From the sequence record OK272482.1: 64,000 bases of DNA. One strand, given 5' to 3'. The notes beneath the pieces were generated by a model that was given only the letters and a program-made list of their open reading frames with translations, was not told the origin of the DNA and searched no databases. Made by a program: the position numbers and the translations under genes. Origin of the DNA: Escherichia phage JLBYU08. This document shows positions 33,792-59,121 of this stretch, piece by piece (position 1 is the first letter of the stretch; every line of letters begins with the position of its first letter).

Positions 33792-34007
33792 ATGAAGATA
33801 GAAATATTTGGTGGAGCTGACAACACTCGTGGCCTGATTTACCTTGAATTCGATGAATCATACCTGCCAGAGGTGTTAAATATAGACTCTGTTGCGGAGG
33901 CTTTGGGAGTAAACCCTAAAGAACTCCACTCTTGTGCTGAGATCGATGGTTGGGAAGAGACCATGAACATTGATTTCAGTGAAGTAGAGGATGAACCGCT
34001 GGACTGA
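33792..34007 (+). CDS. small acidic protein (family A-like N-terminus MKIEIF)
   Basis: 71 aa; RBS GAGGAG; last gene of the + strand block. Confidence 0.5.
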   Translation: MKIEIFGGADNTRGLIYLEFDESYLPEVLNIDSVAEALGVNPKELHSCAEIDGWEETMNIDFSEVEDEPLD

Positions 34008-34134
34008 CACACAATTAGCTGCCCGGCTAAAGTGCTGGAAGCACCTATAACACATCTTTCAACTAAATTTCCTACAACCACAATCACTTACCTCCCACAC
34101 ATGACTGTTTGCTTGTTTAGTGAGCAGTCATGCC

Positions 34135-34162
34135 TTGACATTCTTGCCTATCCTGATAAAAT
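34135..34162 (+). promoter_or_regulatory. sigma70-type promoter firing into ORF-free DNA
   Basis: TTGACA-N16-TAAAAT. No credible ORF for >2 kb downstream. Confidence 0.45.
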
Positions 34163-34357
34163 TAAGTTCTTCTCTTTTCTTTTACCGAGTAATTCGGGTT
34201 TTCTGTTCTCTTCGGTTTGAAGGGGTATGGAGATACACCTGAGTGAACAGGGTGAACAACCGAACATTTGGCTATGGCATTAGCATGGCGAAGCGGACGG
34301 GTGACGAAAGAGGGGCCGGAGGACACCAGTCACTGCCATATGATATATGGGTGATAA

Positions 34358-34900
34358 CCTGAAGAGTCTGAATAAGTGTTTAAGTACCAGTCAGAGGAAA
34401 AGGTGAATGGTAGCCGAAGGGGGAGGGGGGGTTTCTTGTATCTTTAATTTGTATATTATGTATACACTTGTAAACCAATCTCATTTGAATTTGTTTACCA
34501 CACAAAGGGGATAGAGACAAATATTATCTATTAAACTTGAATTATTTATAGAAAATACCACAACACCACTTAAGTCTTTGATTTTACACACAAATCCTAC
34601 AGATATTCACCCTCCATATTTAACATACCTGTAACATATTCCATACCCTACCTGTCTGATCAATTCACCCAACCACACCCTCCATATTTTCCCTGTCTGT
34701 ACCACCCCTGCCCCGCCGGGAGTCCCGTCATATCTGGCTTTCCAGCAAATATCACACCCACAAATATCATTGCCTGAAGAGGGTTTCATCCCATAATACC
34801 TGCCTTACCTGAAGAGCGCTTCATATACCCCGTAAATTTTTTTAATTGACCTCCTCCCCGCCGCCGGAGGGGTCGGCTTTTCCCACACAGGCCTGAAGAG
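34358..34900 (+). repeat. four dispersed copies of CCTGAAGAG
   Basis: At 34358, 34773, 34808, 34892. The two central copies continue as CCTGAAGAG-sGs-TTCAT, 35 bp apart. Confidence 0.6.
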
Positions 34901-35143
34901 TCAGCCAGAAATATTTGAACAGGTCCAGTTATACCACGATTTTGACCTGACCGACAGGGAGGCCCGAAGGGTCTAGCTTTCAGCTAGAGTCCTTGCAGGA
35001 CCTACAGGAGCGCTGCCAGGCGGACGAAATGGGAATACTTCTCATTCTTATAACAATTCTCAAATATCAAGGCAGTGAGGCAAATTAATAGGTGAGGCCG
35101 TTCACATAGTGGCACAACATTTGCAATCTATTTTGTGTGGGGG

Positions 35144-35180
35144 AATGAGAATACATATCATTGTGAGAACCATTATCATT
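35144..35180 (+). promoter_or_regulatory. two tandem TGAGAA-N4-TATCATT boxes (Fur-box-like)
   Basis: aATGAGAATacaTATCATTgTGAGAACcatTATCATTa. Confidence 0.45.
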
Positions 35181-35532
35181 ACGGGCAATTTAACATAATA
35201 CCCATTATACGCACCACTGACGATACATACAGGGATTGATAACATGGGTTACTGTTTACGCATATAACAATTATATTTCTTACTATTTGTGTGGGATATA
35301 GTTAGCAGCCGATAGATTAGATATTGACCTGCGGACTTCTGACCGTCTAGACGTCTAAACGCCCACACAACAAGGCTTATACATACATCGCTGAATGTAA
35401 ACAGGGCCGCAAAAATGCTACCATACCAGATTGTAAATTTTTCATGCAGCACTTGACAAAGAGGAGAAAAACTTGTCTGACACAATATGACATACTGGGC
35501 ACATTAAACACACTTTAGACTTAATTGACATG

Positions 35533-35674
35533 CCTGACTGTTTACGCTGTCACTATTCACGCTATTACTATTCACTCCCTTTACTGTTCACGCTCTTACT
35601 GTTTACATGCTTAATGGTTTACATGCTTAATATACTGCATGTCTAATAGTTTACATAGCTAACTATTTATACAG
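35533..35674 (+). repeat. array of nine contiguous degenerate 14-17-bp units (core ACTGTTTAC / ACTATTCAC)
   Basis: Units start at 35533, 35547, 35562, 35577, 35593, 35610, 35626, 35642, 35659. The core recurs at 35251, 36058 and inverted at 35397. Confidence 0.7.
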
Positions 35675-35683
35675 ATATGATAA

Positions 35684-35908
35684 GCCATGCCATTCGTTTG
35701 CATGTTAATAATTTATGACATAATATAAAAGCAGGGCAACTATTAGCAGATCTATAGTTGCCTTGCTTGTCATGTCATGATTAACTAAATACAAGGCAAC
35801 TATGATCTGATTAATAGTTTGCAGACAAACTATCACGGGGGTGATGGTTACTGCTTTTATATTATGTCGCGACTCCGTCGCGCCATGCCATTCGTTTGCA
35901 TAGTTGCC
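35684..35908 (+). repeat. nested repeat structure (20-bp direct repeat, 16-bp inverted repeat, GGCAACTAT sites)
   Basis: GCCATGCCATTCGTTTGCAT at 35684 and 35882. CATAATATAAAAGCAG 35719-35734 versus CTGCTTTTATATTATG 35851-35866. GGCAACTAT at 35735 and 35795, inverted at 35754 and 35900. Confidence 0.75.
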
Positions 35909-36511
35909 TTATTGTTACAGATAAAATAATTGTATTGTTAATTATTTCTTATCTTTCTCTTAGTCATCTAATGATTCCAGTTAGTATAGTAATGTACAGT
36001 AAACATTAGACGACTAAAGATTTATATGCTTATAATAACTTACAGTGACAATTTCGGACTGTTTACGAAAAATGTTGACACCTGAGCCGATTTATGTTAT
36101 GCAGTTTACACGAATAATTATTTTATGCAGGTATTGACTATTCCGTTATTCCATGGTTGGAATAAATACTTAGCAGTCTATAGAATGGTGACGCTACGTG
36201 AATTCTGGAATTTAGTGGCTATAGTTATACTCGATTTTTCACGTAGAACACGCTTTTGTTAGTGTGTAAGTGTATGACTTATAAAGATTTTTAGTTGTTG
36301 ACAAGATACTGAAGATATGCATCAGGTTAAATTTTGTGCAATAGCGGCATTACGTGCAATTTTGGGAGAGAAAACGGGCAAAAATGGCCTTGCTACCACA
36401 CAATGAAAAATTATGCAATAGTTATTTTCCATGTATATTTGTACAGTGTGTGGGATTAATGGCTAGTCAATTATTCCACTTGCCAGGTAGGGCCGTTTAT
36501 GGTAGGAGAAG

Positions 36512-36542
36512 AGCAGACAAAAAGAAAGGGGCCTAAGCCCCT
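36512..36542 (-). terminator. rho-independent terminator closing the island
   Basis: Minus strand AGGGGC-TTAG-GCCCCT followed by TTCTTTTTGT, 20 nt after stop of 36562 gene. Confidence 0.7.
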
Positions 36543-36561
36543 TGATAATTCAGTTAAAAAA

Positions 36562-37726: not shown

Positions 37727-37834
37727 AATGTTTTCCTCTCTTCTGGTTGTTGTGTGGGCACTTTTGCCCCTTCAAGATAAATGTTACCCCACCACCTGGC
37801 AGATGTCAACGGTTTTTATAGTTCTTATATGACA

Positions 37835-37863
37835 GGCAGGCCCGGTGATTGTCTCCCCCTGTT
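37835..37863 (-). repeat. inverted copy of the AACAGGGG..GAGACAATCACCGGGCCTGCC element
   Basis: Reverse complement matches 47398-47430 except for a 4-nt indel. Confidence 0.7.
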
Positions 37864-37945
37864 CCCAAGTGCCGCCCGTTTAATAAGAATAGCAAAAGGG
37901 GCCGAACAAGTCAACCCCCAAAATCAGTACCAAAACACTTTTTAT

Positions 37946-46948: not shown

Positions 46949-47110
46949 TTAAATTATTTTTATGATAGAATCCACCTGCCGTCCCCGCCAGGTTAACCAC
47001 CATTTTTCGTACTCTTCTTTATGTTCCAACGCTCCCGCCATAGCCTTTTCAACCAGGGCGATAGCCTCAGAGTCATTAATAGCTACATTTTCCAGGGGGG
47101 ATCATATCAT
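46949..47110 (-). pseudogene. first island ORF, interrupted by in-frame TGA at codon 3 / C6-tract frameshift
   Basis: Strong RBS GAGGAGG, then ATG ATA TGA, continuing in frame for 50 codons (...VAINDSEAIALVEKAMAGALEHKEEYEKWW...). A second ATG 5 nt later is +1 out of frame across a C6 run (G6 at 47095-47100 on +). Confidence 0.3.
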
Positions 47111-47268
47111 TTTTGTACCTCCTCTTCAATTGTTACCTATCCTGTAGCATAGGCCCACCAGGTTTACAAGCCTTCATTCTCCCCTACCTGGTCAGTTAGG
47201 TCCTGCCAGGCTGGCCCCGCCAGGTGGCACAATATACCTATCGAAAGGACGGCAGGCACCGGTGACGG

Positions 47269-47285
47269 GGGAGACAACCACCGGG
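47269..47285 (+). repeat. GGGAGACAACCACCGGG (related core copy)
   Basis: 16/17 identical to 47408-47424. Confidence 0.55.
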
Positions 47286-47301
47286 GATGGGCGCTGCATA
47301 A

Positions 47302-47326
47302 AATGAGAACGGTTATCATTATCATT
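47302..47326 (+). promoter_or_regulatory. Fur-box-like operator
   Basis: GAGAACGGTTATCATTATC (47305-47323) matches the Fur consensus GATAATGATAATCATTATC at 15/19 by hand count; flanked by 8-bp inverted repeat TGCATAAA/TTTATGCA. Confidence 0.45.
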
Positions 47327-47397
47327 TAAAAATTTATGCAAAAAAAAAAATCCTTGCTTTCTTTGTCCTGTGTGATACTATAATAACAAGCCGGGGC

Positions 47398-47430
47398 AAC
47401 AGGGGCCGGGAGACAATCACCGGGCCTGCC
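47398..47430 (+). repeat. AACAGGGGccggGAGACAATCACCGGGCCTGCC element
   Basis: Directly downstream of a TATAAT (47379-47384). Inverted partner at 37835-37863. Confidence 0.7.
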
Positions 47431-47442
47431 CGTTATTCTGCA

Positions 47443-47490
47443 AACGAGAATGATTATCATTCAAAATTCTAAATGAGAACTCCTCGCATT
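47443..47490 (+). promoter_or_regulatory. Fur-box-like operator plus a degenerate third box
   Basis: GAGAATGATTATCATTCAA (47446-47464) matches at 14/19; second box aaATGAGAACtcctcgCATT at 47471-47490. Confidence 0.45.
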
Positions 47491-47571
47491 TAATAAATTT
47501 AATTAGCACGCTAATTACCCTCCGTAACAATTTACTATAAAATAGTATCCACTAAAATATTCCCATATAGA

Positions 47572-47760
47572 AATTTTAAAAATCCATTTCTGAAAACGAA
47601 AAATCGATTTCGTCCCCAAAAATTTCAGGTTGAGAGCCGGAACGATTTCCAGAAAATCCGATTCAGAAAACGAAAAACAGATCGAGTACTGAGAAATTTA
47701 TCGAGAAAAATTTTCAGAAAATCCAAGCCCTGAAATGAAAAGTAGATCGAGTACCTGGAA
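47572..47760 (+). repeat. three degenerate direct repeats, period ~64-73 bp
   Basis: Each unit reads GAAAATCC-N5-6-TGAAA(A/T)(C)GAAAA-N2-(A)GATCGAGTAC; the first unit is more diverged. Confidence 0.6.
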
Positions 47761-47925
47761 AGCTGCACCGCAACTTCAAGATAGCGGTTAGATTGTTACC
47801 ATAGAAGGTCAAGGGTAAGTGGAGGAAGTTCTAGTAGAGAGAGGTTAGCATGTGTGGGAAATCTATAATGGTGGCCTGGAATATGGTGCAAACGATAGGA
47901 TGAGTTATTCAGCTTGTCGCGCCTA

Positions 47926-48035
47926 CTCTGAAAAATCCATTTTAGTTTTCGATCCATTTTCTGATTTTCTAAGAATTTTAAAATATCCAGCCCGGTGAAA
48001 TATCAAAAGGAGGAAATCCATTTTAGAAATCCCCC
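47926..48035 (+). repeat. further AAATCCATTTT motifs in both orientations
   Basis: GAAAAATCCATTTTAG, CGATCCATTTTCTG, GGAAATCCATTTTAG. Confidence 0.5.
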
Positions 48036-48066
48036 TTATACTTGATATGCCAGAAATTTTCAAGTA

Positions 48067-48396
48067 TCAGTTGTCTTTGTTTTTAGGTTTGTACATGCGC
48101 AGAGGTATGGTCTTTGTAACATTCCATTTCCTCAACCCTTCCCAGCTCCAGTTGTGGGCGTGGTATCCGGTTATGCATGCACTACTGGAGTGATCGTAAG
48201 CATAAGAGAACGCTAAGCGCACCAGGTGGGGCCAGTCCTTCCATGGTTGTGGACCGTAAGCTTTTCTCCAACACCGACACAAACTAAATGTCTCAAGGAT
48301 AGGAAGGATAACAAACCCATACACTGTCACCAAAATAGCCAGTGCAATGATTGTCAGGAATACATACCCTGCAGTTGAAATGATGATCTCTGTCAT
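48067..48396 (-). CDS. N-terminally anchored membrane protein
   Basis: 109 aa; IIISTAGYVFLTIIALAILVTVYGFVILPIL. Confidence 0.55.
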   Translation of the reverse strand: MTEIIISTAGYVFLTIIALAILVTVYGFVILPILETFSLCRCWRKAYGPQPWKDWPHLVRLAFSYAYDHSSSACITGYHAHNWSWEGLRKWNVTKTIPLRMYKPKNKDN

Positions 48397-56368: not shown

Positions 56369-56697
56369 CATCTGTTCAGGTAGGTCGTTAAGCTACCCCG
56401 CACCATTACGTGCATAGCCATACAGTTTCCTGTATGGATCGGACTACCTCACTGCCTTGGTAACAAGGCACCTCCCATTTCGACCGCACTTGCTGGCCTA
56501 CTCTACTCGCTTCTTCACACCAACCTATGTTGGAGCTATGCTTTCGATAGTCTCTGAACGTTCATCCTCTCGGATGCTTCGCTGCGGATTAGCATATTGA
56601 GCTTTTACCATACTCAGGTGTAAAAGTCAACTTAGCTTTCCCGTCAATTAAAGAGGTTATTCGACATAGATCACTCTATGAAGCCACAATGTTATTT
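56369..56697 (-). ncRNA. group I self-splicing intron (ORF-less) in DNA polymerase gene
   Basis: Minus-strand RNA contains P AAUUGACGGGAAAGCU, Q AAUCCGCAGC, R GUUCAGAGACUAUCG, S GAGGUAGUCCG in order. 5' splice site follows U, with exon CCAU pairing to intron GUGG. Intron ends in G. CAUU can pair with exon-2 GAUG (P10). Confidence 0.8.
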
Positions 56698-59121
56698 ATG
56701 GTAATAGATAATACGACGGACACCTTCATCGTACCACCCACGCTTCACCATTTGGTGGTGCATGAGTATCCCAACTAAGTCACACAACGATGCACCACCA
56801 TTTTGTTGGTATGCATTAAGTAAAGAGTGTTTAGATCGGGTCCAGATGGCATGACCATCAAAAGAGTATATAAACTTCTTACCAGTTGCTTCCCAGAATT
56901 TCTCCAGATCCTCTTTACGCCCCTTAAGACCAGGGTTGGCATCCCAAAGCGCATCGATTACCCTTTGCCCCAACTCTGGAGAGATATCCAGCATGTCTGC
57001 AACTTTATCTTTTTGTGCCCCGTACATAACCCCATACGTGATAGGTTTACCGTCGTTACGGGACACCTCTCTGCCTGCTACTTTTGTATATGCCTCAGCA
57101 TTGTTTTGGTGTGCGTCCCCGTTACTTACAACATCATAATACAAGCCGTTGTCGAACTCAAAGGCACCCCAAGCCCCGATAAGCTGCTCTAAGTTGGACC
57201 CGTCAATACCGATCTCAAAGTATCCTGGAGGAACACCCCACAGACTACGCATCTCTTTACCCATAACCACTTTAGGAGATGGTTTAGGCATGTTTGCACA
57301 AATACTGTGTTTCTGTCGGGAAGTGTTTGTTAGCCCAGAACTTTTAGCAGGAAGCTTATGGTCAATCTTCAAACGTGGGTGATTAAGAAGACCAGTATCA
57401 ACCTTATCCTCCTTGATTGGATCAAGGACCGATCTGCGGTTTCGCAATGATAACCACAAGACGATATCTTTAGCCATCTCTCCGTTCAATTTTTCAAGAT
57501 TTGGGCATAGGTGTCCAAACGTATCTTTCAGCTGCGGAGAAGTAATAAGTGCTCTGGCTTTTCTACGTATTTTCCCGAATACTTCCTTTTTAATCCTTTC
57601 GGAGTTAGGAAAGCTTCGGAACTTGTGCACGGTTGTCTGAAACTTAGCATCAGTTTTGTTCCAGAAGTTGATAATCAGGTCACAATACTCTGACTCTAAA
57701 AGCTCGTCCATGTATGCATATACTCGTGCATCAACATCTGCATCAGGTAGAGCTTTCTTCTTGCTGTCTTTAGTTACATCCTTAGTTCTCCACATTGTCG
57801 GAAGCCAACCAGCACTGATCAGGTATCGCTTAATGTCGTCCTGATTGCTGATTTTCATAGGTATCTTGCAGTCCGGCATTCGCTTCTGCTGTAGATCACT
57901 TATTGCCTGATCCATCAGCTCTTTAGGTAAAGGTTGTGGTGTGGAAGTGCCCTTAATATAGCCTCTCAAGAAATCAGCCATCTTATCAGGGTCTTTGCAG
58001 CCCATCTCTTCACACCATTTTATCCCCATCTTGCTGACATCTCCTGTGGAGGTAAATGCTCGCTTAGGCGGGGCTTTGAACTCCAAAGCACTCATGTCCA
58101 CAGGATAGCCAAGCTTATCTTTTAACCATTTCCAACCATTGTTGGAGATTGTCCCATCTTGGTTAAACGGCTTTTCAGGGAACTTGGGCCGCTGAGACAT
58201 TGACAGCTCTTTTAAAGGAAGTTGAGGTTCAACACGATCAGCGATTTCTTTCATCCACGCATCGCAACGGTCACGTAAAGCAATAGCTCCATCTATGTCG
58301 AAGTATACACCCTGACGGGCCTGCAGCTCCATCAGGAAGTGCTGCAGCATGCCTCGACGTAGTGCGTTCTTCCAGGTGATCTTCTTGAACCCTTTCGGCT
58401 TCTCTTTGGCTGGATCGTACATAAAGTTCTGCATGTCAGATTTGCCGTAGAATACACCTTTTGATTCCGCTACCAGCTCTTTCCAGAGCAGCTCCTGGAT
58501 GATAACGTCCTCGAATACACGATCCACATACTTCCACAACGGAAGATCGCGCCAGTCATCAATTTGAACTTTCTGGTTACCAAGGGCGTAGCCCCATGCC
58601 ATAAGGCCGTGAGGACCAACAGGCTGCATTTTCTTAGTAACCGGGTTGAATACAGAGTCCGGACAACCTTTTGGTAAAGGGCGATCAGGCCACAAGATTC
58701 GGCTCATCGCCAACGTATCAAACAGGTTAACCTGGTGGTCGTTGATAGTCCCCATACATTTAGGATCACGGAACATATCAAAATGAATACCGGATAATCT
58801 CTCCATCAGCATAAAGTCATAACTGTAGCAGTTATGGCAGTTCAAAGCTGTTGGTGACCAGTCGGAATTGCCTGTAAGCCAACCCTCCAACTCTGAAAAA
58901 TCTGCTATGCGAACTTCAAAATCTTTATAAAAAGTTTTCTTTGCCAGAATAAAGTTCTTAGCCTTCTCTATATCCTCTTCGGAGTAGTGTGTGCGGTCAT
59001 TTAGAGGAAGGAACAGCATAAAACGGTTCTTATTCAGCTCTTTAAACAGGCCGCAGTGATAATAAAGATCTGGGTCTTCCAGCAAACCGGATGACTCAAA
59101 ATCGAACGACCACATGCTCAT
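56698..59121 (-). CDS. DNA polymerase (family A) with 3'-5' exonuclease domain, exon 1
   Basis: 808 codons up to ...RRIIYYH; Exo I FDFESSG at N-terminus. The unspliced reading adds K* from intron sequence. Confidence 0.85.

What the first reader, a model, noticed from the sequence alone, without database searches (positions are those of the whole stretch)
47111..48066. Second ORF-free region (about 0.95 kb) upstream of the island, with ~64-73-bp degenerate tandem repeats
No credible ORF lies between the first island ORF and the 48067 gene. Three direct units (47572-47760) share GAAAATCC-N5-6-TGAAA(A/T)(C)GAAAA-N2-AGATCGAGTAC. Related AAATCCATTTT motifs occur in both orientations at 47926-48035. 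The region also holds an A11 run (47338-47350), a TATAAT-containing + strand promoter-like site (47355-47384) and the operator-like boxes described separately. Together with 34.0-36.55 kb, it brackets the island with about 3.5 kb of repeat-rich non-coding DNA. This may be the control region from which the island is launched, or a second cis-acting site such as pac, an origin or an injection-stop-like element.
Basis: seen in the sequence. Interest (0 to 1): 0.5.

Follow-up and report, generated by a model that had tools for sequence, protein, structure and literature searches.

The report
Conserved non-coding promoter, Fur-box, repeat module
This gene-free 0.95-kb stretch of an rV5-like E. coli phage is a strongly conserved DNA control module: host-type promoters facing backwards, binding sites that look like those of the host iron sensor Fur, and three long repeats; it is most likely a switchable replication start site, and nobody appears to have described it.

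Summary
Window 47111-48066 lies in a Vequintavirus (rV5-like) genome, inside a long minus-strand block of small genes. No ORF in it stays open across 10 related genomes. Even so, 47212-47712 is more conserved (96-100%) than the flanking genes.

The same architecture recurs in at least nine genera, in fixed order on the + strand, antisense to all neighbouring genes:
- tandem sigma70-type promoters;
- a ~55-nt G+C-rich leader (GGAGACAAYCACCGG);
- 19-bp palindromes that match canonical Fur boxes, 29 nt apart where there is more than one;
- a 150-bp A+T-rich stretch;
- three 65-75-bp direct repeats with an invariant core ending GATCGAG(T/A)AC;
- a variable spacer;
- a cluster of short repeats.

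The conserved promoters face away from the "island", so "island launch pad" is not supported. A pac site or injection stop is unlikely because these genomes are reported to be circularly permuted, T4-like.

My best guess, at about 0.35, is a transcription-activated, iteron-bearing replication origin gated by Fur or a Fur-like binder. The main rival is a Fur-gated non-coding or antisense RNA locus. Function is inferred, not shown.

I found no description of the module. Fur-type operators also occur widely in other phage contigs.

The parts
47213..47233 (+). Remnant of the first + strand promoter (for leader B'). GGCCCCGCCAGGT is the junction of a ~65-nt deletion specific to this window, and CACAAT (47228-47233) is the -10. 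In all 9 relatives a TTGACA -35 and an A/T-rich upstream stretch precede it.
   Evidence: Alignment of 10 Vequintavirus genomes; length difference 162 vs 227 nt.
47240..47301 (+). Leader B', a G+C-rich ~60-nt segment with the core GGAGACAACCACCGG (47270-47284). It is a paralogue of leader B.
   Evidence: Direct-repeat families D4 and D6; pattern search; weak covariance-model match at 47249-47298, 21.1 bits; 98-100% conserved in the genus.
47302..47320 (.). Fur-box-like palindrome 1 (AATGAGAACGGTTATCATT). It matches 16/19 of the E. coli Fur consensus on the minus strand.
47340..47350 (+). A11 run immediately upstream of the next promoter, in the position of an UP element. It is A6-7 in most relatives. 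Other genera carry TGTAAAGA-N3-TGTAAAGA at this position.
47354..47384 (+). Conserved sigma70-type promoter (P3): -35 TTGCTT (47354-47359), 16-nt spacer, extended -10 TGaTACTAT, overlapping TATAAT (47379-47384). The predicted start is near 47388-47391.
   Evidence: Hexamers and spacing are conserved while the spacer sequence varies in 10 of 12 phages compared, from other genera. The scanner picks up the orthologous sites in PVP-SE1, GAP31 and KaOmega.
47381..47442 (+). Leader B, with the core GGAGACAATCACCGG (47409-47423). It has a possible long-range stem closing the 5' end (ATAAC...GTTAT).
   Evidence: Most deeply conserved segment: blastn hits in 267 phage records from many genera. Covariance-model score 61.9 bits. 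The stem is 91% paired with many G.U pairs on the + strand, against 28-60% in slid controls, but covariation is not clearly above shuffles.
47443..47461 (.). Fur-box-like palindrome 2 (AACGAGAATGATTATCATT). Its minus strand GATAATCATTCTCGTTTGC is 17/19 identical to the E. coli K-12 fhuA promoter.
   Evidence: Invariant in the genus.
47472..47490 (.). Degenerate third palindrome (AATGAGAACTCCTCGCATT), 29 nt after box 2. The same 29-nt phasing is seen in the arrays of 1-4 boxes in relatives.
47460..47610 (.). A+T-rich stretch (72-77% A+T in 60-nt windows, at or above the 98th percentile of the window). It includes the conserved palindrome TAATTAGCACGCTAATTA (47500-47517). It is a candidate unwinding element.
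47531..47558 (+). Weak + strand promoter candidate (P4): TTTACT-16-TAAAAT. The -10 is invariant in the genus and the -35 varies. Orthologous sites in PVP-SE1 and GAP31 are TTGACA-18-(TG)GAAAAT, and Mydo has TTGACT-17-GATACT by eye; all lie just upstream of the three repeats.
47566..47622 (+). Direct repeat unit 1, with a decayed end (AATCGATTTCG instead of GATCGAGTAC).
47640..47696 (+). Direct repeat unit 2. The core AGAAAATCCGATTCAGAAAACGAAAAACAGATCGAGTAC is invariant or nearly so in 10 genomes.
47705..47761 (+). Direct repeat unit 3, with a core ending AGATCGAGTAC at 47744-47754.
47762..47925 (.). Variable spacer, 73-83% column identity within the genus.
47926..48038 (+). Conserved cluster of short direct repeats: AAATCCATTT (47933, 48014), GATCCATTTT (about 47951), AAAATATCC (47980-47988) and GAAATATCA (47997-48005). 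Relatives carry 2-4 copies of CAAATATCA 12-13 nt apart at this position.
37831..37880 (-). Related element outside the finding: a third copy of the leader (GGAGACAATCACCGG at 37842-37856) on the minus strand, sense to the genes. It lies between TTGACT-17-TATTCT and the promoter that the rV5 paper lists as P168, and has no Fur-like box.
   Evidence: rV5 Table S4.

Best explanation
**What it is.** The gap is a deeply conserved, non-coding, cis-acting module of rV5-like phages. On the + strand, antisense to every neighbouring gene, it has this fixed order:
1. Two tandem host sigma70-type promoters.
2. After each promoter, a ~55-nt G+C-rich leader (GGAGACAAYCACCGG) and 19-bp palindromes with the sequence of Fur boxes.
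3. A 150-bp A+T-rich stretch.
4. Three 65-75-bp direct repeats with an invariant ~40-bp core ending GATCGAG(T/A)AC.
5. A variable spacer.
6. A cluster of short direct repeats.

**How I think it works.** It is most likely a transcription-activated origin of DNA replication. By my own knowledge, the logic resembles T4 oriF/oriG/oriE, the T7 primary origin and lambda ori. Host RNA polymerase fires from the promoters into the easily melted, repeat-bearing DNA. A phage-specific protein binds the three repeats and the short repeats, which act as iterons. The host iron repressor Fur, or a protein with the same specificity, sits on the boxes between promoter and repeats and gates that transcription.

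**Shown here.**
- The gap is non-coding.
- It is under purifying selection.
- The promoter hexamers and their spacing are conserved.
- The boxes match Fur boxes in sequence and are phased 29 nt apart.
- The triple repeat is conserved across genera.

**Inferred.**
- That the promoters fire.
- That Fur binds.
- That the repeats are protein sites.
- That the output is replication initiation.
For: **Non-coding yet conserved.**
- No ORF is conserved.
- 47212-47712 is 96-100% identical across 10 Vequintavirus genomes, more than the flanking genes.

**Architecture conserved while neighbours change.**
- The same order of elements sits in an unannotated or inconsistently annotated gap of a minus-strand block in PVP-SE1, GAP31, Mydo, Av-05, KaOmega, CR3, F5M2A, POP18, ChuuTotoro and Hena1. 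ESCO5 and Aeromonas 2L372D share it in part.
- Flanking genes differ between genera.

**Promoters.** Conserved hexamers with variable spacers, all on the + strand.

**Iteron-like features.**
- Three long units have conserved spacing: 67/75, 67/74, 67/76, 63/78, 65/66, 69/76, and 74/65 in this window.
- The core consensus is GAAAATACGATyT.GAAA..GAAAA..CGATCGAGAACC.
- The core sequence changes between subfamilies (Hena1, ESCO5) while the box sequence does not. This is what I would expect for a co-evolving phage protein versus a host factor.
- The units show no consistent RNA fold and no strand bias in folding energy.
- CAAATATCA short repeats lie 12-13 nt apart in relatives.

**A+T-rich stretch.** It is at or above the 98th percentile, directly between the boxes and the repeats.

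**Fur match.**
- Boxes match 15-16 of 19 consensus positions.
- One box is 17/19 identical to the E. coli fhuA promoter.
- Identical strings are published Fur boxes.
- All six matches to the phage 19-mer in the 64-kb window fall in the two non-coding regions.

**Context.**
- The sister non-coding region is the ~2-kb intergenic region that tolerated no transposon insertion in Bas54.
- The rV5 authors could not locate an origin.
Against: - There is no direct evidence of replication function.
- There is no DnaA-box cluster; only one 1-mismatch match lies in the gap.
- No recognisable initiator gene is adjacent. Neighbours are small unknowns, and the ~275-aa neighbour seen in other genera (phrog_12959/12463) is absent from this window.
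- The Bas54 transposon study singles out only the other, ~2-kb region as insertion-free. This module may therefore be dispensable, at best a redundant origin.
- The promoter-plus-leader unit also occurs in sense orientation ahead of ordinary genes at 37.8-37.9 kb. It is thus a general transcription element, not origin-specific.
- The Fur-like boxes are not in the classical position overlapping -35/-10. They lie about +55 from the upstream start.
- This window's phage has lost the -35 of the first promoter by deletion, so that promoter is not indispensable.
- No plasmid carries the module.
Confidence: 0.35

Rival explanations
1. It is a Fur-gated non-coding RNA locus. The + strand promoters make one or more non-coding or antisense RNAs (leader B', leader B, and a longer read-through RNA containing the three repeat units). 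These act in trans, for example as a sponge for an RNA-binding protein, or as antisense to the upstream minus-strand genes at 48-64 kb. The boxes set how far transcription runs according to host iron status.
For: - The + strand promoters are conserved and no ORF follows them.
- In other genera the first + strand promoter of the gap drives small ORFs of four unrelated families, so the + strand is probably expressed.
- The leader has a stem that is 91% paired with about 19 G.U cells, which would be mismatches on the other strand. Its covariation score is 0.161 against 0.129 +/- 0.016 for shuffles.
- The same leader is used ahead of genes elsewhere, as expected for an RNA-level element.
Against: - No intrinsic terminator follows on the + strand.
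- There is no Rfam match even at permissive thresholds.
- RNAalifold finds only the palindrome hairpin, without covariation.
- The repeat units fold weakly (-2 to -12.6 kcal/mol), inconsistently and equally on both strands.
- Their invariant blocks look like sequence-specific DNA sites.
- The inner hairpin of the leader is only 61% paired.
Confidence: 0.25
2. It is a transcription boundary or control hub for the minus-strand block. Head-on promoters and protein-bound repeats slow, terminate or time the read-through from the genes at 48-64 kb into the downstream block at 36.5-47.1 kb.
For: - The module sits inside one long co-directional block and fires against it.
- The strong minus-strand promoter TTGACA-16-TATTAT lies just beyond it at 46940-46913, consistent with transcription restarting after a boundary.
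- A similar motif set sits at the other end of the block, at 34-36.5 kb.
Against: - No minus-strand terminator of any quality lies in the gap; the only one is a weak 3-GC-pair stem.
- A boundary would not need three long phased repeats plus short-repeat arrays conserved over nine genera.
- Genes on the two sides are of the same kind and composition.
- Nothing marks 36.5-47.1 kb as a separate island in relatives.
Confidence: 0.15
3. It is a decoy for the host regulator. The boxes exist to titrate Fur as the phage genome is amplified, as in the Fur titration assay (my own knowledge). This would de-repress host iron uptake to supply phage iron enzymes. The rest of the module would be unrelated.
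For: - The boxes are near-canonical Fur boxes, one of them 17/19 identical to the fhuA operator region.
- They cluster in the non-coding DNA of the phage only.
- Similar palindromes are common in other phage contigs.
Against: - The boxes keep a strict position relative to promoter and leader and a strict 29-nt phasing across genera. This argues for local cis regulation.
- In other phages they sit 9-13 nt after the -10 of consensus promoters, an operator position.
- Three to six sites per genome is few.
Confidence: 0.07
4. It is a packaging (pac) or terminase recognition site, or an injection-stop signal.
For: - Three phased repeats resemble multi-site terminase binding regions, and each conserved core holds a GATC as in P1 pac (my own knowledge of those systems).
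- A few database records start inside or near the region: A112b, phiWec189 and a Salmonella phage.
Against: - rV5 is reported as circularly permuted.
- CB7 and PhiTE are T4-like permuted, with no over-covered region and no BAL-31-sensitive band.
- The number of records starting within 1 kb (about 4 of 267) is what chance gives, by my own estimate.
- GATC is not enriched in this window's gap: 3 in 956 bp against 5.7 per kb overall.
- A permuted genome has no fixed first-entering segment.
Confidence: 0.04

Closest known systems
Transcription-dependent phage origins (T4 oriF/oriG and oriE, T7 primary origin, lambda ori); comparison from my own knowledge
   Same: One or more promoters directly upstream of an A+T-rich, easily unwound stretch. 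Direct repeats (iterons) as in T4 oriE and lambda ori. No coding function. Located inside an early or middle gene region of a circularly permuted genome (T4).
   Different: There is no sequence similarity and no known initiator. The repeats are long composite units (65-75 bp, three copies) rather than 12-19-bp iterons. The promoters are host sigma70-type and antisense to the neighbours. Arrays of Fur-type palindromes lie between promoter and repeats, which none of these origins has.
Fur boxes / Fur operators of enterobacteria (for example the fhuA promoter)
   Same: The 19-bp palindrome matches 15-16 of 19 positions of GATAATGATAATCATTATC. Box 2 matches 13 of 14 positions of the 7-1-7 form TGATAATnATTATCA, counted by eye. 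One box is 17/19 identical to the fhuA promoter sequence. Arrays of adjacent boxes are typical of Fur sites.
   Different: The boxes are carried by a virulent phage. They lie about +55 downstream of a transcription start rather than over -35/-10. They have a fixed 29-nt phasing. No iron-related gene is downstream. Binding was not tested.
Promoter-proximal antitermination leaders (lambda/P22 nut, HK022 put); from my own knowledge
   Same: The leader is a short conserved element just downstream of early-type promoters. It is present in several copies per genome in different transcription units (47.25, 47.4 and 37.85 kb). It has a possible stem-loop, and its GACAA-containing loop recalls the P22 boxB loop.
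   Different: No boxA was looked for or seen. The stem evidence is weak. No N-like protein was identified. Two of the three copies precede no genes.
Plasmid centromere or iteron arrays (F sopC, P1 incA/incC, P4 crr); from my own knowledge
   Same: Tandem direct repeats of tens of base pairs, each holding a short inverted repeat (CGATC...GATCG), plausibly bound by a dedicated protein.
   Different: There are only three units. The phage is virulent. No partition or Rep gene is adjacent, and no plasmid carries the module.

Membership tests
Fur box (operator of the ferric uptake regulator) | Match to the 19-bp consensus GATAATGATAATCATTATC or the 7-1-7 inverted repeat | tested here: met
   16/19 (47302 box) and 15/19 (47443 box), against 9/19 for the 47472 box. 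One box is 17/19 identical to the E. coli K-12 fhuA promoter. The same strings are listed as Fur boxes in published work.
Fur box (operator of the ferric uptake regulator) | Overlaps the -35/-10 or the start of the promoter it represses | tested here: not met
   The boxes lie about 55 nt downstream of the predicted start of the upstream promoter and 34-90 nt upstream of the next -35. In some unrelated phage contigs the same palindrome does sit 9-13 nt after the -10.
Fur box (operator of the ferric uptake regulator) | Binds Fur-Fe2+ (footprint, EMSA, titration assay, ChIP) | not testable with these tools
   No binding data are available.
Iteron-type / transcription-activated replication origin | Three or more direct repeats in regular spacing | tested here: met
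   Three units at 74/65-nt spacing here and 63-78 nt in eight other genera. Short 9-mers lie 12-13 nt apart in relatives.
Iteron-type / transcription-activated replication origin | Adjacent A+T-rich unwinding region, with a promoter reading into it | tested here: met
   47460-47610 is 72-77% A+T, at or above the 98th percentile. Conserved + strand promoters lie upstream. Promoter activity itself was not tested.
Iteron-type / transcription-activated replication origin | DnaA boxes or another recognisable initiator site | tested here: not met
   Only one 1-mismatch TTATNCACA match lies in the gap (47334), with no cluster.
Iteron-type / transcription-activated replication origin | Cognate initiator gene next to the repeats | tested here: not met
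   The neighbours are unknown small proteins (phrog_2531). The ~275-aa neighbour in other genera (phrog_12959/12463, no significant Pfam domain) has no homologue in the window.
Iteron-type / transcription-activated replication origin | Initiates replication (marker frequency, 2D gel, autonomous or infection-dependent amplification) | not testable with these tools
   No such data. The rV5 authors found no origin by skew analysis.
pac / terminase recognition site | Defined packaging start: coverage step, pac fragment or BAL-31-sensitive band | tested here: not met
   This rests on the literature only. rV5 is circularly permuted. CB7 and PhiTE are T4-like permuted with no over-covered region and no sensitive band. 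Raw reads for this phage were not available.
Known RNA family (Rfam) | Covariance-model match at or near the gathering score | tested here: not met
   There was nothing in the gap at gathering thresholds. At permissive thresholds the window gave only chance-level hits (E 0.6-2.4), and the ten related loci gave no match at E up to 1.
nut/put-like antitermination leader | Promoter-proximal position in several transcription units | tested here: met
   Three copies in the window, each 25-45 nt after a promoter-like site. Second copies occur in CR3 and a 152-kb UViG.
nut/put-like antitermination leader | Conserved RNA stem-loop supported by covariation | tested here: inconclusive
   The outer stem is 91% paired, has two pairs with double changes and many G.U pairs. 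The covariation score was reached by 16 of 500 shuffles. The inner hairpin is 61% paired.
CRISPR-like mini-array | Near-identical 28-37-nt repeats separated by unique spacers | tested here: not met
   The period (65-75 nt) fits, but the copies are only 63-78% identical and the 'spacers' share motifs (A5T5 tracts).

The most novel reading that the evidence does not exclude
Virulent phages read host iron status directly through the host repressor Fur. In rV5-like phages, arrays of canonical Fur operators gate an antisense, host-polymerase-driven transcription unit. That unit carries a nut/put-like leader and fires into an iteron-bearing origin, so replication initiation or antisense silencing of the early block is coupled to iron availability. 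The same operator placed right after consensus early promoters in many unrelated phage contigs would make this a general, undescribed phage strategy.
Probability: 0.2. Interest if true: 0.8.

Novelty: new variant of a known kind. Interest (0 to 1): 0.6.

Why it matters
rV5-like phages (Vequintavirinae and relatives) are among the broadest-host-range coliphages and are used in therapy cocktails. Their origin of replication and early regulatory logic are unknown.

This module is more conserved than the genes around it and recurs in at least nine genera infecting Escherichia, Salmonella, Klebsiella, Cronobacter, Pectobacterium, Serratia, Erwinia, Proteus and Pantoea. It therefore marks a core function that current annotations either leave blank or cover with spurious ORFs.

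If it is an origin, it gives a handle for engineering and for replication studies. If the Fur boxes are real, it would show that a strictly lytic phage wires its programme to host iron status, which matters in the iron-poor gut and in infection sites. The finding is directly testable with standard assays.

Tried and rejected
**Tandem Repeats Finder.** It found only a 12-nt micro-repeat at 47694-47721. The long units are too degenerate for it.

**Coding explanations.**
- The leader-plus-box segment read as a peptide shows non-synonymous-type changes between genera (by eye).
- None of the gap ORFs is conserved.
- The small + strand ORFs of other genera have no counterpart in the window.

**RNA explanations for the repeats.** Single-unit folds are weak, inconsistent and equal on both strands. 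Rfam gave no match.

**Dam/SeqA-type GATC clustering.** GATC is enriched 2-4 fold in the repeat region of relatives but not in this window.

**R-loop-prone G skew of the leaders.** The skew is near zero in most leaders.

**DnaA boxes.** None cluster here.

**Adjacent initiator.** The neighbours are unknown and not conserved between genera.

**Plasmid or host homologues.**
- The only E. coli genome match is a chance-level 28-nt hit (E = 2).

**Genome termini.** Records that start in the region are no more frequent than chance, and the genomes are reported as permuted.

**More Vequintavirus loci from IMG/VR via the flanking protein.** This returned only 2 loci, so I used GenBank records instead.

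**Literature.** I found no paper describing this gap, Fur boxes in lytic phage non-coding regions, or transcriptomes of these phages.
Full report
**Context**

The window is a Vequintavirus (rV5-like E. coli myophage). The best match is phage EdH4, 98.9% identical over 1.5 kb, and 121 phage records match at megablast level. From about 36.5 kb to 64 kb all genes are on the minus strand. The finding (47111-48066) is a gap inside this long block of small hypothetical genes.

**Is it ORF-free?**

- Mechanical ORFs of 37-53 aa exist in the gap.
- In an alignment of 10 Vequintavirus genomes none of them is intact in all. The flanking 109-aa gene 48067-48396 is intact in all 10.
- Annotators disagree. 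CM1 and navn leave the gap empty, while EdH4, FFH2, FV3 and slur12 call different ORFs on different strands.
- The orthologous gaps of other genera are unannotated or carry doubtful ORFs; GAP31_043A is flagged by its own authors as having a poor ribosome-binding site.
- I accept the gap as non-coding.

**Are the repeats real?**

- The repeat finder gives three 57-nt copies at 47566, 47640 and 47705, with spacing 74 and 65 nt and identity 63-74%.
- Units 2 and 3 share 42 of 57 positions. None of 1000 simulations reached this, even with the A+T-rich local composition (maximum 36).
- Exact GATCGAGTAC occurs only at 47680 and 47745 in 64 kb. Unit 1 has a decayed end.
- The decisive evidence is comparative. 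Three units ending GATCGAG(A/T)AC recur in other genera:

| Phage(s) | Spacing between the three units (nt) |
|---|---|
| PVP-SE1 | 67 / 75 |
| GAP31 | 67 / 76 |
| Mydo | 67 / 74 |
| Av-05 | 67 / 75 |
| KaOmega, CR3, F5M2A | 63 / 78 |
| ChuuTotoro | 65 / 66 |
| This window | 74 / 65 |

- Erwinia phage Hena1 has three units at 69/76 nt with a different terminal motif.
- The 27 aligned units give the core GAAAATACGATyT.GAAA..GAAAA..CGATCGAGAACC.
- ESCO5 (Stephanstirmvirinae) has different long repeats at the same place.

**The rest of the anatomy**

A blastn search showed that window 47344-47502 is conserved at 72-86% identity in phages that otherwise share no DNA similarity with this one. A 141-nt query hit 267 records from many genera.

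*Promoters.*
- Aligning these loci shows a + strand promoter whose hexamers and spacing are kept while the spacer varies. The window has TTGCTT-16-TGaTACTAT. The scanner lists TTGATC-16-TATTAT (with TG) in PVP-SE1 and GAP31, and TTGCCA-17-TATATT in KaOmega.
- The scanner does not list the window's site, because its -35 matches only 3 of 6.

*Leader.*
- About 55 nt of G+C-rich leader follows, with the core GGAGACAAYCACCGG.

*Palindromes.*
- Next come 19-bp palindromes with the consensus AATGAGAATnATTCTCATT.
- Relatives have 1-4 of them. Where there are several, successive boxes are 29 nt apart, except 28 nt in 2L372D and a fourth box 38 nt on in Certrevirus. The window has 47443 and a degenerate 47472, again 29 nt apart.

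*The duplicated unit.*
- Vequintaviruses carry a second, upstream copy of the whole unit: leader B' at 47240-47301 and a box at 47302.
- In the nine relatives this copy has a TTGACA -35. This window has lost about 65 nt between two GGCCCCGCCAGGT repeats, removing that -35.

*Downstream of the boxes.*
- 47460-47610 is 72-77% A+T, at or above the 98th percentile.
- A further + strand promoter candidate precedes the repeats. It is weak in the window (TTTACT-16-TAAAAT), good in PVP-SE1 and GAP31 (TTGACA-18-GAAAAT with TG), and TTGACT-17-GATACT in Mydo by eye.
- After the repeats come a variable spacer and a conserved cluster of short repeats at 47926-48038. In relatives this cluster is 2-4 copies of CAAATATCA spaced 12-13 nt.

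*Conservation.*
- Within the genus, 47212-47712 is 96-100% conserved, more than the flanking genes.

**The palindromes are Fur boxes by sequence**

- They match 15-16 of 19 positions of the E. coli consensus.
- The minus strand of box 2, GATAATCATTCTCGTTTGC, is 17/19 identical to AATAATCATTCTCGTTTAC in the E. coli K-12 fhuA promoter. That fhuA is Fur-regulated is my own knowledge.
- Identical strings are tabulated as Fur boxes in Enterococcus (read) and occur in papers on iron regulation in Xanthomonas, Acinetobacter and Listeria, which I did not open.
- In the 64-kb window all six matches to the phage 19-mer (4 mismatches or fewer) lie in the two non-coding regions: 35028, 35144, 35162 and 47302, 47443, 47472.
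- AAATATCA is also shared between the two regions.
- The boxes keep their sequence across all host genera while the long repeats diverge between subfamilies. From this I infer that a host factor reads the boxes and a phage protein reads the repeats.
- Binding was not tested, and the boxes are not in the classical operator position.

**Is the leader an RNA element?**

- RNAalifold on a raw alignment found only the palindrome hairpin.
- A stem joining the first transcribed bases to the bases just before the box is 91% paired, against 28-60% for slid controls. It has two pairs with double changes and many G.U pairs that would be mismatches on the other strand. However, covariation is not clearly above shuffles.
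- A covariance model finds one strong copy per relative (55-77 bits).
- It also finds weaker copies:
  - the window's B';
  - a third copy on the minus strand at 37831-37880;
  - second copies in the CR3 genome and in a 152-kb IMG/VR contig.
- The 37.8-kb copy sits between two promoters, sense to the genes, one of them the rV5 paper's P168.
- The leader is therefore a general promoter-proximal element. An RNA role, such as stability or antitermination, is possible but not established.

**What it does**

I excluded or down-weighted the following:
- Coding.
- A known RNA family.
- pac or injection stop. rV5 and CB7 are circularly permuted, and CB7 shows no over-covered region or BAL-31-sensitive fragment.
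- A launch pad for the island, because all conserved promoters face the other way.

What remains is a protein-binding, promoter-bearing, A+T-rich, iteron-like non-coding module. By my own knowledge of T4 oriF/oriG/oriE, the T7 primary origin and lambda ori, that combination is most typical of a transcription-activated replication origin, here with Fur-type operators placed to gate the transcription.

Several points weigh against this and keep my confidence at about 0.35:
- There are no DnaA boxes.
- No initiator gene is adjacent.
- The leader is also used at ordinary promoters.
- The first promoter is deleted in this very phage.
- The Bas54 transposon study flags only the other, ~2-kb non-coding region as insertion-free.

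The main rival is a Fur-gated non-coding or antisense RNA locus (0.25). A transcription boundary (0.15) and a Fur decoy (0.07) follow.

**Novelty**

The rV5 paper marks only one 'non-coding' box on its genome map (I take it to be the large region). Its Table S4 predicts no promoter between P195A and P205, the interval in which I place this gap from promoter sequence matches, not by direct coordinate mapping. It reports no origin. Searches for Fur boxes in lytic phage genomes, for origins or for transcriptomes in this subfamily found nothing relevant. I rate it a new variant of a known kind: a phage non-coding control or origin region with an unusual host-regulator input.

Noticed in passing
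window 47212-47225: This phage lacks about 65 nt that all nine other Vequintavirus genomes have. The deletion lies between two GGCCCCGCCAGGT direct repeats. It removes the TTGACA -35 and the A/T-rich upstream stretch of the first + strand promoter.
   Followed up: partly
window 46949-47117: The small minus-strand ORF left of the gap (57 aa in EdH4) has no in-frame start here. The window has a G6 run instead of G5 and a 6-nt gap in the start region, and the C-terminal frame also differs. It shares CCCGCCAGGT-type repeats with the gap, so it may be decaying or non-coding.
   Followed up: partly
window 37727-37945 (minus strand): A third copy of the GGAGACAATCACCGG leader sits between two tandem minus-strand promoters (TTGACT-17-TATTCT and TTGACA-17-TAACAT, the latter rV5 P168), ahead of a 90-aa gene. 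It has no Fur-like box. CR3 and a 152-kb UViG have a comparable second copy that does carry a box.
   Followed up: partly
window 34000-36550: The large non-coding region at the convergent junction carries paired Fur-like boxes (35028/35046 and 35144/35162, 18 nt apart) and AAATATCA repeats (34747, 34762, 35062). It also has a run of ACTGTTTAC/ACTATTCAC-type short repeats at about 35540-35660. Its orthologue in Bas54 tolerated no transposon insertions (preprint 10.1101/2025.11.20.689424).
   Followed up: partly
It is often in arrays. Of the 247 flanks examined, 16 have a near-consensus TTGACA-17/18-TAWAAT promoter ending 9-13 nt upstream, against 0.2% of control positions. Some copies sit next to DnaA-box clusters (L058, L125). 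Fur-type operators in phages look widespread and undescribed.
   Followed up: partly
L004 2290-2440, L005 2270-2420, L003 2340-2480: In Seunavirus, Mydovirus and Phapecoctavirus a further + strand promoter drives a ~95-nt conserved G+C-rich segment (GAAGAGGAAxCGCCACCCCACGGCGAAAAGGCGGGGCTAAC...). It has no Rfam match and is absent from this window. It could be a separate small RNA.
   Followed up: no
L003 2130-2342, L004 2097-2279, L005 2073-2258, L130 1182-1391, L134 1193-1387, L135 1053-1316: The first + strand promoter of the orthologous gaps drives a small ORF (60-87 aa) belonging to four unrelated families in different genera, a variable cargo slot. The window has none.
   Followed up: yes
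window 56419-56707 (minus strand): Group I intron (Rfam RF00028, 72.5 bits).
   Followed up: no
GenBank records of relatives (PVP-SE1 gp202/gp203, FV3_00182/183, EdH4_00029/30, FFH2 gp103-105, F5M2A UNA04031-33): ORFs annotated over the leaders, boxes and repeats are inconsistent between records and are probably spurious.
   Followed up: partly
L127 2264-3124, L131 2207-3031, L005 3116-3931, L135 2168-2998: In Certrevirus, Seunavirus, Mydovirus and Avunavirus the gene just beyond the short-repeat cluster is a ~275-aa protein of unknown function (phrog_12959/12463). It has no homologue in this window.
   Followed up: partly
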